Positions 34,701-37,700 of a stretch of 64,000 nucleotides of DNA are shown piece after piece. Positions within the stretch are counted from its first letter, which is position 1; every line of letters begins with the position of its first letter. Source of the stretch: Callorhinchus milii (lineage: Eukaryota). The stretch spans positions 15,500,001-15,564,000 of the forward strand of contig NW_024704758.1 in NCBI RefSeq assembly GCF_018977255.1, written 5' to 3'. A program made the position numbers.

Positions 34701-37700
34701 TTAATTATTTTTGGGGGTCTTATTACCCTCAGAAAAGCAAACCACCAATCGACAACTATTATGTACATTTTATGTCTCATGATTATTGGCAGAAACTATG
34801 AAATGGCTGGTGCTCGAACAAGAGAATACACTATCTTAGGTACACAGCAACCACTAATACAATATACATATATAAATATGCACATATTGCACTTTTCACA
34901 CACGGAGGAATCACACTGATCATTGATTAAATTGCAATGTCGTTCACAATATCTCTGATTAATCCCACTAAGCAAGACAAGTACTAACATTATAGTATTT
35001 GTCTATCTTTTTAACCTTAGTTCACAGTGTGTGTTGAATTTGTTTGTTGAACATTTGTCCATAACTGACGAGGAATGTCTTCCATTACAAATGATCCCAG
35101 TAGTGGTTTGAGCACTTGCCTCGCAAGTGAGAGTATCTGGGTTCGATTCCCAGGCAGGGCGAAATCTTAAGTCAAATTTCCTTACTCCTCACAACTCTGT
35201 TTACCTAGCAGAAAGTAGGAACCCAGATTGGCGGATCTCTCTCCAGGGGTAATAGAATCCATTTAATTTTATAATGACATGAATATTCATACAGCGCCTT
35301 TCATATAAAACAGTCTCAAAGCACATTGCAAAATGTAAACAGGAAATAAATCAATAGGAAATAAAAGTGAACGTTATACAGGCAAGTATGGCAGCTAAAT
35401 CTGGGGGAGGCAGAATCTAGTAAGCATCAATGAAGCGAGTAGCCAATTCATTTGAAATCTGTAAATTTGGATCAAGGGGAATAGCCAGATAAACTGGGAG
35501 AAAGTTTCCATTGGCTTCTTTGGCAATACCAGAGCTGCCTTTGTGTTCTTTATTTGAATCACAGACAGAACCAATGTTATAATAATCCTTGAACATGATA
35601 CAGCACCTTATCCCATTATCAAAACATCTTACATTTGAGGATTAGCAAAGCCATCAAGCGATTTCAATCTTTTGAAAGTATCAGAGGTTAACTCAAACCC
35701 CTAAATCTGTTTAACTTTGAGTAATTTACCATCTTCAGTTTTGATTTATCAAGATCAGATCTTTCTACTGTTGATCGCAATATCTTTATTTTGGTGCTTT
35801 TTTTTGAACACGTTGCAATTACAAAATGCCCCGATTCTCAAGATTTTGAACTTATTAAAATCTAGAGCATCATATATCTTGATGCAATATTACGGGCAAG
35901 TTGGTCAGCACGTTTTAAAACCCCACAAATCAATAAACACAAGGAACATTGTTCCAAACTGATTTTATTCAAAACCAAATCAAGTTGCACAAAACACATT
36001 AAAGCACGGTTTACATTCATTAACAATTGAACAGCAGGGTTTGTTTTCACAGTGAAGGGTTGTTCAAAGCTTTCTAAAACCCCAAGCCACCAGCTAGGGG
36101 TCACCGGCCTAATTTCTACTTCTGACTCCGAATGGATAGACAATTTGCACATGTTTGCAGTGCAGGGCACCGACTTCAAATCCAGACTCTAAAAGGGCTC
36201 GACGGGCTTGATGCGAGTTTCCTAAAAATATATTTCCGTTGCAAGAAATTTGTTAATCGACACCAGTAAAACACATACAATAACCTTCCCCAAACTTTCC
36301 GTTGAACATGCAATCTTGATCTAAAACACAAAGCTATAATTGTATCTATTAGAGGCAACATTCAATGCAAGAATTAACCACATTTGTTCATACCACTCTG
36401 CATGCCAACAGTACTGATCTCAAACTAGTTGTGCCTGAAAAGCTTAATCCCCATCCAGTTCCACAGGTGAAAGAAAACGTACACTGGTATCGTGATGGGG
36501 AGCAGGAGGCTATAAAAACACACACTGCCTGTACTAGTACACCCCTGAGGGAAATTCTCATCAACCATAGCCGAATACAGTAGTCCAGCTAAAGACAGAA
36601 GGGGAACCAGCACAGTTAGAGTTGACAGAGGAAGTGCCATTGTTTCAAACATTTATGTTATATTCCTTGTGTTTTGTGACAGATTTATTTCCCCCGCCTC
36701 ACCGAGTCCCATTCATCCAGAAAACAGTTTGATTATTTCTGTGAATCTTCCTTGCACATATCTTCAGTTCTCCGAATCAGTCTCGCGTCCTGTGGGATCA
36801 TATTTGGGATTCCATCGACAATGGGATATGCTATTCCCAACTCATCGTTTATCAGCTGATTGGTATCTTCCGCGTATCTGCAAAACCACATGAAACAACA
36901 GAATTGAGGAAAAAAAGTGGTCCATTGATGATGTCAGCAATTGGGTGAGGGGGGGGGGGGGGGGTGGGGGTCGGGGGGGGTGGGGGTCGGGGGGGTGAGG
37001 GTGGGGGTCGGGGGGGTGAGGGTGGGGGGGTGGGGGTCGGGGGGGTGGGGGTCGGGGGGTGAGGGTCGGGGGGTGGGGGTCGGGGGGGGTGAGGGTGGGG
37101 GAGGTGGGGGTCGGGGGGGGTGAGGGTCGGGGGGGTGGAGGTCGGGGGGGTGGAGGTCGGGGGGTGGGGGTCGGGGGGGGTGGGGGTCGGGGGGTGGGTG
37201 GGGGTCGGGGGGGTGAGGGTGGGGGGGGTGGGGGTCGGGGGGGGGTGGGGGTCGGGGGGGTGGGGTCGGGGGGGTGGGGGTCGGGGGGGTGGGGTCGGGG
37301 GGGTGGGGGTCGGGGGGTGGGGGTCGGGGGGTGGGGGTCGGGGGGGTGGGGGTCGGGGGGGTGGGGGTGGGGGGGGTGGGGGTCGGGGGGGTGGGGGTCG
37401 GGGGGGTGAGGGTCGGGGGGGTGGGGGTCGGGGGGGTGACCAACCTCAGGGGTCTCCGGCTGAGCGGACAGACCAGACAGGTCAGGAGGGAGATGTCAAA
37501 GGTCCTCACACTGGGGTCAGGGGTCACATGGACCAGCCTCCGGCTGCCGACTCCAGGGCCCCCCGCGACCCCCGCGCAGTGACACAGCCGCCCCCACCCC
37601 CACCCCGCCCGCAACATCGCCCCGGCCTCACACAGCACTTCCGGGTCACACGGCACCGGGGGCGGGACCAAATATATCCCCGCCCCTTCCGGGGGTCACA

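What the first reader, a model, noticed from the sequence alone, without database searches (positions are those of the whole stretch)
36425..37617. Intact PYURF-PIGY bicistronic unit in a probable cartilaginous fish
Seen: a two-exon PYURF ORF ends at 36733 and an intronless PIGY ORF starts 80 nt later on the same strand, with no promoter-like sequence or strong splice acceptor between them. Known: mammalian PYURF (a mitochondrial Trm112-like partner of the methyltransferases COQ5 and NDUFAF5) and PIGY (a GPI-GnT subunit) share one bicistronic mRNA, which is rare in vertebrates. Inference: this coupling of mitochondrial and ER GPI biogenesis may date to the jawed-vertebrate ancestor. The ORF track does not recover spliced PYURF, and annotation pipelines often drop one of the two ORFs.
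Basis: partly seen in the sequence, partly recalled or inferred. Interest (0 to 1): 0.75.

Follow-up and report, generated by a model that had tools for sequence, protein, structure and literature searches.

The report
Elephant shark PYURF-PIGY two-protein gene
This is the ordinary, intact elephant-shark copy of a known vertebrate gene that carries two unrelated small proteins (PYURF and PIGY) one behind the other, and it is already in public annotation.

Summary
PYURF (preY) has two exons, 37617-37445 and 36877-36733. An 80-nt spacer follows, then an intronless PIGY ORF at 36652-36425.

- **PIGY:** it matches Pfam PIG-Y at 43 bits against a cut-off of 25.
- **PYURF:** the two exon translations equal residues 1-57 and 59-105 of the public record "protein preY, mitochondrial-like [Callorhinchus milii]".
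- **Organism:** the window is therefore elephant shark, a chimaera. It is not human.
- **Start of transcription:** promoter-like motifs sit only upstream of PYURF. The spacer has no CpG island, no good splice acceptor and no stable fold.
- **Other fish:** four teleost gene models fuse the two domains in the same order. Shared ancestry of the linkage in jawed vertebrates is therefore a fair inference.

No transcript data were available. Seven ATGs lie between the two start codons.

The gene pair is textbook, and a 2026 paper has already traced such pairs through evolution. Novelty is low.

The parts
37637..37749 (-). Promoter-like GC-rich region upstream of PYURF. It holds the window's only CCGGAAGY (ETS-like) site at 37637-37644, three GGGGCGGGG boxes at 37678-37749, and a 24-nt direct repeat (37643-37666 and 37693-37716).
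   Evidence: 3 of the window's 4 GGGGCGGGG matches lie here, against 0.13 expected in the whole window. The single CCGGAAGY match is no more than chance gives for the window (1.31 expected), and only its position is suggestive. Reading the motifs as ETS and Sp1 sites is from recall. The TSS was not mapped.
37445..37617 (-). PYURF (preY) exon 1: ATG at 37617, 57 whole codons plus 2 nt. It has an Arg-rich N-terminus with no acidic residue before D34, then the start of the Trm112p-like domain (LVCPLS).
   Evidence: The translation equals residues 1-57 of P0121. The role as a mitochondrial presequence is inferred from composition and from the record's name.
36878..37444 (-). The single PYURF intron (GT...AG, 567 nt). 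481 nt of it (36958-37438) are a 15-nt tandem repeat, GGGGGGGTGGGGGTC on the + strand, 31.6 copies.
   Evidence: The 227-aa ORF 36934-37617 of the ORF list is exon 1 read through into this repeat, not a protein.
36733..36877 (-). PYURF exon 2: the third base of codon 58, then 47 codons, then TAA at 36735-36733.
   Evidence: The translation equals residues 59-105 of P0121. It is 100% identical to the C. milii record and 64-86% identical to the other preY proteins listed.
36653..36732 (-). The 80-nt spacer between the cistrons. It holds AATAAA (36689-36684), an ATG at 36716 that opens a short frame ending in TGA, and an ATG at 36712 that opens a frame of about 19 codons whose TAA abuts the PIGY ATG.
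   Evidence: The fold z-score is 0.06, so no stable structure. The lengths of the short frames were read by eye from the sequence printed.
36425..36652 (-). Intronless PIGY ORF, 75 codons from the ATG at 36652. The likelier start is the second in-frame ATG at 36640 (A at -3, G at +4), which gives 71 aa. The stop TAG is at 36427-36425.
   Evidence: 67 of the 119 listed homologs are 71 aa. The FPxGC motif lies at offset 29 in 64 of the 95 homologs that have it, which matches the window only when counted from the second ATG.
35964..35969 (-). First AATAAA after the PIGY stop, 456 nt downstream, followed by a GT-rich stretch. This is the likely poly(A) signal of the whole unit.
   Evidence: Its use is inferred, not shown.

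Best explanation

**Proposed mechanism**
1. A GC-rich, TATA-less promoter upstream of 37617 drives one primary transcript on the minus strand.
2. One 567-nt intron is removed.
3. The mature mRNA of roughly 1.1-1.2 kb then carries, in order:
   - a 105-codon PYURF ORF, encoding a small mitochondrial Trm112-like protein that in human is reported to bind the methyltransferase-fold proteins COQ3, COQ5 and NDUFAF5;
   - an 80-nt spacer;
   - a 71- or 75-codon PIGY ORF, encoding a small membrane subunit of the GPI N-acetylglucosaminyltransferase.
4. It is polyadenylated after the AATAAA at 35969.
5. PYURF is read from the first AUG, which has a middling context (G at -3, U at +4).
6. PIGY is most likely read by ribosomes that miss that AUG, or that resume scanning after one of the very short frames opened by later AUGs. 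They would start mainly at the well-placed second AUG at 36640.

**Shown here:** the two intact ORFs, their identity, the splice model, their order and spacing, and where the promoter-like motifs are.

**Inferred:** the single transcript, the poly(A) site and the way PIGY is translated.
For: **Identity**
- Pfam PIG-Y scores 43 bits.
- There are 131 PIGY homologs, the best named one 89% identical, from an electric ray.
- The exon translations equal the public C. milii preY record, which scores 36.6 bits on Trm112p.
- That record matches solved bacterial UPF0434 proteins, best 2pk7 at E 2.9e-10.
- Invariant residues lie on both sides of the exon junction in 16 preY proteins.

**One unit**
- Same strand, 80 nt apart.
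- The GC boxes and the only ETS-like site lie 20-130 nt upstream of the PYURF ATG.
- There is no CpG island and no pyrimidine-rich acceptor before PIGY.
- The first AATAAA after PIGY is 456 nt downstream and has a GT-rich follower.

**Same order elsewhere**
- 4 of 13 long PIGY hits carry both Pfam domains. In 4 of 4 of these, Trm112p comes first.
- In Cynoglossus semilaevis, the source names the PIG-Y protein 'preY isoform X2' and the Trm112p protein 'isoform X1'.
- Human PIGY and PYURF share exactly the same mRNA in RefGene (passage read). PYURF-PIGY is listed among 14 human bicistronic transcripts (passage read).

**PIGY start:** homolog lengths and motif offset fit the second ATG, which has A at -3 and G at +4.
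Against: - No RNA, CAGE, Ribo-seq or protein data for this species could be consulted, so co-transcription is not shown.
- The spacer contains AATAAA (36689-36684). If used, it would end a PYURF-only mRNA just before PIGY.
- Seven ATGs lie between the PYURF ATG and the first PIGY ATG. One of them, the in-frame Met84 codon, has A at -3, and Met84 is nearly invariant among preY proteins. Simple leaky scanning alone therefore looks inefficient.
- The fused teleost models are annotation errors used as indirect evidence of adjacency. They are not transcripts.
- The single ETS-like match is within chance for the window.
Confidence: 0.8

Rival explanations
1. Two neighbouring genes with separate mRNAs. 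PYURF transcripts end at the AATAAA in the spacer. PIGY is made from its own start site inside PYURF exon 2, the intron or the spacer, or from a splice form that skips the PYURF ORF.
For: An AATAAA hexamer lies at 36689-36684, 44 nt after the PYURF stop. Seven ATGs stand between the two starts, which makes downstream translation costly.
Against: - No CpG island or GC or ETS motif lies near PIGY.
- The AGs of the spacer have poor pyrimidine tracts, 0.35-0.45.
- The sequence after the spacer hexamer is A-rich with little GT, unlike that after the hexamer at 35969.
- The human orthologs share one mRNA.
Confidence: 0.15
2. The PIGY ORF is a dead or redundant retrocopy that happens to lie behind PYURF, and the working PIGY gene is elsewhere in the genome.
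For: The ORF is intronless. In mammals many 'PIGY-like' copies are listed, for example several in Octodon degus.
Against: - The ORF is intact.
- It ends in the family's usual LFRHN, as do 95 of the 119 listed homologs.
- It is 89% identical to a ray protein.
- It sits in the same place and order as in teleost fused models and in human.
- No second C. milii PIGY appeared, but the 90% clustering and the closed cluster look-up make that weak.
Confidence: 0.03
3. PIGY is translated through an internal ribosome entry element in the spacer rather than by scanning.
For: None found here. It is considered only because the second ORF follows a 105-codon first ORF.
Against: The 141 nt around the spacer fold no better than shuffles (z 0.06; 99 of 200 shuffles fold at least as well). 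Rfam has no match in 34000-40000.
Confidence: 0.02

Closest known systems
Human and mammalian PYURF-PIGY (preY/PIG-Y) bicistronic gene
   Same: - The same two protein families, in the same order on the same strand.
- An intronless downstream ORF of about 71 codons.
- A short spacer.
- In RefGene the two human genes are exactly the same mRNA of 1356 nt (passage read).
- The pair is listed as a known bicistronic transcript (passage read).
   Different: - The species is a holocephalan.
- PYURF is 105 aa here.
- The intron is almost wholly a 15-nt tandem repeat.
- An extra in-frame ATG lies four codons ahead of the likely PIGY start.
- Transcript evidence is lacking here.
- I did not compare with human DNA.
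RefSeq-derived record 'protein preY, mitochondrial-like [Callorhinchus milii]' (P0121, 105 aa)
   Same: Both exon translations of the window are found in it letter for letter, at residues 1-57 and 59-105, with R58 from the split codon.
   Different: None seen. It is the annotation of this very locus. A second public model (P0122, 89 aa, UniProt) uses another splice and lacks the CPLS motif.
preY and PIGY of other cartilaginous fishes (Narcine bancroftii, Stegostoma tigrinum, Rhincodon typus and others)
   Same: - PIGY is 89% identical to the Narcine record and 82% to the Stegostoma record.
- Exon 2 of preY is 69-82% identical to records from 11 other chondrichthyan species listed.
- The Narcine preY and PIGY records share the same longest-contig length of 494,489,450.
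   Different: Adjacency in those genomes could not be read here.
STREMI-SLC35A4 and the other conserved vertebrate bicistronic transcripts (EMBO Rep 2026, PMC13303939)
   Same: Two unrelated, independently older proteins on one transcript, with an intronless downstream ORF. That paper proposes retroposition into an active locus and dates STREMI-SLC35A4 to jawed vertebrates, using cartilaginous-fish loci (section 13 read).
   Different: A different gene pair. What that paper found for PYURF-PIGY is in its Fig. 7D,E and Dataset EV6, which I could not see.
Bacterial UPF0434 and Trm112 small proteins
   Same: PYURF residues 41-98 match solved UPF0434 proteins (2pk7 E 2.9e-10, 2jny, 2jr6 and others) and Pfam Trm112p.
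   Different: Those are free-standing bacterial or archaeal proteins. PYURF has an added N-terminal extension and sits ahead of PIGY.

Membership tests
PIG-Y (Pfam PF15159), subunit Y of GPI N-acetylglucosaminyltransferase | Sequence match to the family profile above the curated cut-off | tested here: met
   43 bits against a cut-off of 25, E 8.3e-11, profile positions 6-69 of 69.
PIG-Y (Pfam PF15159), subunit Y of GPI N-acetylglucosaminyltransferase | Small size (about 71 aa) and the conserved FPxGC and C-terminal LFRHN motifs of vertebrate orthologs | tested here: met
   The ORF is 71 aa from the second ATG. 67 of the 119 listed homologs are 71 aa. FPxGC lies at offset 29, as in 64 of the 95 homologs that have the motif. 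LFRHN ends 95 of the 119.
PIG-Y (Pfam PF15159), subunit Y of GPI N-acetylglucosaminyltransferase | Association with the GPI-GnT complex and need for GPI anchoring | not testable with these tools
   This needs biochemistry or a knock-out. No relative with a solved structure was found: the only PDB hit is a designed repeat protein at E 0.0018, taken as chance.
PYURF / preY (Pfam PF03966 Trm112p-like; UPF0434) | Sequence match to the family profile above the curated cut-off | tested here: met
   Exon 2 alone scores 19.7 bits, below the cut-off of 22, and exon 1 alone has no hit. The public 105-aa record equal to both exons scores 36.6 bits, residues 43-80. The exons were not joined by me.
PYURF / preY (Pfam PF03966 Trm112p-like; UPF0434) | Invariant core LVCPLS...LRY...N.LIN.ELGIAYP..DGIPNMIPQ shared by vertebrate preY | tested here: met
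   29 invariant columns in 16 sequences, all present in the window's protein, on both sides of the exon junction.
PYURF / preY (Pfam PF03966 Trm112p-like; UPF0434) | Mitochondrial location and binding of COQ5, COQ3 and NDUFAF5 | not tested
   Only composition of the N-terminus was looked at: four Arg and no acidic residue before D34. The binding partners come from passages in papers on the human protein.
Vertebrate PYURF-PIGY bicistronic gene | PYURF ORF directly upstream of PIGY ORF on the same strand, with a short spacer | tested here: met
   80-nt spacer, minus strand.
Vertebrate PYURF-PIGY bicistronic gene | One mature mRNA that carries both ORFs | not testable with these tools
   No transcript data. 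Indirect support only: where the promoter motifs lie, no good acceptor, and the poly(A) hexamers.
Vertebrate PYURF-PIGY bicistronic gene | Both proteins translated from that mRNA | not testable with these tools
   This needs Ribo-seq or proteomics. The ATG contexts and the intervening ATGs are listed.

The most novel reading that the evidence does not exclude
The chimaera locus, taken with the bony-vertebrate ones, would fix the PYURF-PIGY fusion of transcription units at or before the last common ancestor of jawed vertebrates.

Its layout also hints at how PIGY is translated. Seven intervening AUGs each open only a very short frame, and the last of these ends in a TAA that abuts the PIGY AUG. 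A strong-context AUG follows 12 nt further on. This suggests that PIGY is made by reinitiation after short frames rather than by plain leaky scanning.

If that layout proved conserved from chimaera to human, it would be a defined, testable translation mechanism for a natural vertebrate two-protein mRNA.
Probability: 0.15. Interest if true: 0.4.

Novelty: already known. Interest (0 to 1): 0.15.

Why it matters
It matters little beyond good annotation. The locus confirms that a rare kind of vertebrate gene, one mRNA for two unrelated proteins (one mitochondrial, one for GPI-anchor synthesis), keeps the same layout in a chimaera as in bony vertebrates. That supports an origin no later than the jawed-vertebrate ancestor.

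It also gives a clean, compact outgroup sequence for anyone who wants to test how the second ORF is translated. In addition, it shows that one public model of this gene (89 aa) is mis-spliced.

Tried and rejected
- **Cluster look-up.** It was meant to list which cartilaginous fishes hold PIGY and whether C. milii PIGY carries a name. Whether the PIGY ORF is annotated in C. milii therefore stays unchecked: the window's own protein is shown without source or name.
- **Murakami et al. 2005, the first PIG-Y/preY paper.** It is not held under the two ids I tried from memory. What I say about it (bicistronic mRNA, leaky scanning proposed) is recalled, not read.
- **Paper searches.** Searches for PYURF/PIGY with bicistronic, leaky scanning, zebrafish, polycistronic, and elephant shark/lamprey terms found no paper that describes this unit in a cartilaginous fish. 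The exception is a HERC synteny paper that names PIGY-PYURF as a flank in most vertebrates. Searches were swamped by the common word 'prey'.
- **Supplements and figures.** Those of PMC13303939 (Fig. 7D,E, Dataset EV6) may already give the phyletic pattern of this pair. They could not be seen.
- **Adjacency in shark, ray, lamprey, gar or amphioxus genomes.** This could not be tested. I used fused gene models as a proxy. None came from a cyclostome or an invertebrate, which is weak evidence of absence.
- **IRES-like structure in the spacer.** Rejected (z 0.06).
- **Rfam on 34000-40000.** Nothing found.
- **The 227-aa ORF at 36934-37617**. Rejected as a protein: it is exon 1 read into the intronic repeat.
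- **Pfam on eight other ORFs of the window**. It gave one reverse-transcriptase fragment and one sub-threshold hit taken as chance. No neighbouring gene could be named, so synteny was not established.
- **Atlas search**. It only confirmed the PIG-Y family, with clusters in chordates and in plants.
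Full report
**What is there**

The feature is on the minus strand.
- Read 5' to 3' on that strand, a GC-rich stretch is followed by an ATG at 37617.
- That ATG opens a frame running to a GT at 37444-37443 (…CTGAG|GTTGGT).
- After 567 nt an acceptor (…GTGGTTTTGCAG|A) leads into a second exon, 36877 to the TAA at 36735-36733.
- Exactly 80 nt later (36732-36653) an ATG at 36652 opens a 75-codon frame that ends with TAG at 36427-36425.

**Identity of the downstream ORF**

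It matches Pfam PIG-Y at 43 bits (cut-off 25, E 8.3e-11). A search of the large protein set gave 131 proteins with E <= 0.001 among 136 candidates, nearly all named 'phosphatidylinositol N-acetylglucosaminyltransferase subunit Y'. The best named hit is 89% identical (Narcine bancroftii), and a zebra-shark record is 82% identical.

Of the 119 listed homologs, 67 are 71 aa long. The FPxGC motif lies 29 residues from the N-terminus in 64 of the 95 that have it. The window's ORF fits this only when read from its second in-frame ATG at 36640. That ATG also has the better context, A at -3 and G at +4, against T and T for the ATG at 36652. I therefore take 36640 as the likelier start, giving 71 aa.

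**Identity of the upstream ORF, exon by exon**

- Exon 1 alone has no Pfam match, and exon 2 alone reaches 19.7 bits on Trm112p, just under the cut-off of 22.
- Exon 2, searched against longer proteins, found 56 proteins with E <= 0.001 among 59 candidates, nearly all named 'protein preY, mitochondrial'.
- The first of these is 100% identical: 'protein preY, mitochondrial-like [Callorhinchus milii]', 105 aa (P0121).
- A script showed that the translation of exon 1 (57 whole codons) is residues 1-57 of that record and that of exon 2 (47 codons) is residues 59-105. The split codon AG|A gives the R58 between them.

It scores 36.6 bits on Trm112p over residues 43-80, across the junction. It also matches solved bacterial UPF0434 proteins, best 2pk7 at E 2.9e-10. 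In an alignment of 16 preY proteins (12 cartilaginous fishes, one frog, three ray-finned fishes), 29 columns are invariant and they lie on both sides of the junction. A second public model of 89 aa (P0122, UniProt) uses a different splice and loses the invariant CPLS motif, so it looks wrong.

**Organism**

P0121 and the window's own PIGY protein both come from a contig whose length is given as 15,634,970, and exon 2 is identical to the C. milii record. The window is therefore elephant shark (Callorhinchus milii), a holocephalan. It is not a human contig.

**One unit or two**

Several things in the DNA point to one transcription unit:
- Three of the window's four GGGGCGGGG boxes lie at 37678-37749, against 0.13 expected in the whole window.
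- The only CCGGAAGY site lies at 37637-37644, 20 nt upstream of the PYURF ATG. One match in the window is no more than chance gives.
- A 24-nt direct repeat lies at 37643-37666 and 37693-37716.
- Around PIGY, CpG obs/exp is 0.55 at 43% GC.
- The three AGs at or in the spacer have 35-45% pyrimidine upstream, against 65% at the used acceptor.
- The RNA around the spacer folds no better than shuffles, z 0.06.
- Rfam finds nothing in 34000-40000.
- The first AATAAA after PIGY is at 35969, 456 nt past the stop, and is followed by a GT-rich stretch.

Two things speak against an easy bicistronic reading:
Its downstream sequence is A-rich and poor in GT, so I rate it a weak site, but only 3'-end data can settle this.
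- Seven ATGs lie between the PYURF ATG and the first PIGY ATG.

Read from the sequence printed, the out-of-frame ATGs open very short frames. The one at 37529 is followed at once by TGA. Those at 36845, 36815 and 36716 stop within six codons. The one at 36712 runs about 19 codons to a TAA that abuts the PIGY ATG. The two in-frame ATGs (36801 and 36759) run to the PYURF stop. Met84, encoded at 36801, is nearly invariant in preY. Scanning ribosomes would therefore meet that AUG in most species listed.

I conclude that PIGY is most likely reached by a mix of leaky scanning and reinitiation after short frames. This is inference. I recall, but could not read, that the first PIG-Y paper proposed leaky scanning.

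**Relatives and age of the linkage**

No eukaryotic genome collection was open, so adjacency in other species could not be read directly. Indirect evidence is as follows:
- Among 13 longer proteins that match PIGY, four teleost models carry both Pfam domains (Leuciscus waleckii, Cyprinus carpio, Ataeniobius toweri, Pleuronectes platessa). In 4 of 4 the Trm112p part comes first.
- In Cynoglossus semilaevis the source names the PIG-Y protein 'preY isoform X2' and the Trm112p protein 'isoform X1'.
- For Narcine bancroftii, Megalops cyprinoides, Hyla sarda and Mixophyes fleayi the two proteins share the same longest-contig length. That shows the same chromosome at most.
- In human the two genes are the same mRNA in RefGene (passage read).

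With the same layout in a holocephalan, in teleosts and in mammals, a single origin no later than the jawed-vertebrate ancestor is the parsimonious reading. No fused model from a cyclostome or an invertebrate turned up, which is weak evidence. PIG-Y itself is far older, since atlas clusters are commonest in chordates and in plants. PYURF resembles bacterial UPF0434 proteins. This fits the 'two old genes, later joined' picture that PMC13303939 draws for such pairs (section 13 read).

**What is already known**
- PYURF-PIGY is named among previously characterised human bicistronic transcripts (passage).
- That paper traced the origin of all 14 pairs across eukaryotes, in a figure and dataset I could not see.
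- A HERC paper uses 'PIGY-PYURF' as a synteny flank in most vertebrates (passage).
[quoted passage not shown] It is predicted to have a Trm112-like fold and to bind NDUFAF5 (passages).
- Public records for preY exist for 12 chondrichthyan species, and PIGY records exist for at least two.
- My searches found no paper that spells out the unit in a cartilaginous fish. The gene of this very species is nonetheless annotated.

**Verdict**

The finding is real, correctly located and correctly named, but ordinary. It is the orthologous PYURF-PIGY locus of the elephant shark, already in public annotation. The evolutionary inference is sound but small, and may already be in print. The transcript-level claim remains untested. 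Interest is 0.15.

Noticed in passing
window 36958-37438: The PYURF intron is 85% one tandem array: a 15-nt unit GGGGGGGTGGGGGTC on the + strand, 31.6 copies, 87% matches. The G-runs are on the template strand and the C-runs are in the pre-mRNA. The translated repeat produces a spurious 227-aa proline-rich ORF.
   Followed up: partly
window 37754-38243: A second tandem array (units of 13 and 58 nt, CTCACTGCTCACAC-like) begins just beyond the GC boxes upstream of PYURF, so the promoter-like stretch is boxed in by two repeat arrays.
   Followed up: no
window 30723-34089: About 3.4 kb of back-to-back GC-rich tandem arrays with units of 18/37, 30, 14/38 and 14/26 nt. They account for the long open frames with repetitive translations and for the 61% GC.
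   Followed up: no
window 37701-37696 and 37529-37524: The motif CCATGTGACCCC occurs upstream of the PYURF ATG and again inside exon 1. Each is an ATG followed at once by TGA, a one-codon 'start-stop'. If the transcript starts far enough upstream, the first would lie in the 5' leader. The meaning is unknown.
   Followed up: no
window 44428-44694 (+): An ORF that starts with ATG and has a hydrophobic stretch near its N-terminus, so it looks like the first coding exon of a membrane protein. It runs straight into a run of N. Pfam gave only a sub-threshold hit (EACC1, 18.7 bits against 23.6), taken as chance. I did not search for homologs, so as not to look up masked letters.
   Followed up: partly
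window, between about 43.7 and 45.0 kb: Two runs of N, 201 and 302 nt. Left as they are.
   Followed up: no
window 10213-10701 (-), 9510-10089, 20723-21149, 25019-25840, 48431-49290, 60591-60962, 61984-62843: Scattered retrotransposon remains. One frame matches reverse transcriptase RVT_1 at 33.3 bits. Several frames share a ...LAP.YL.DLL...RSLRS...LWNSIP...FK..LKT.LFD-like tail. These look like LINE- or SINE-derived repeats of this genome.
   Followed up: partly
P0177 (Arapaima gigas) and P0188 (Caranx melampygus): Two teleost gene models join a PIG-Y part to a parathyroid-hormone-family domain, PF01279. In P0177 PIG-Y is at residues 6-70 and Parathyroid at 75-118. This suggests a PTH-family gene lies just downstream of PIGY in some teleosts, or that the models are mis-joined.
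   Followed up: partly
P0122 (UniProt record for C. milii, 89 aa): This public model of the same gene starts in the 5' leader without an ATG and uses a different donor and acceptor, dropping residues that are invariant in 16 preY proteins. It is probably a mis-spliced automatic model.
   Followed up: partly
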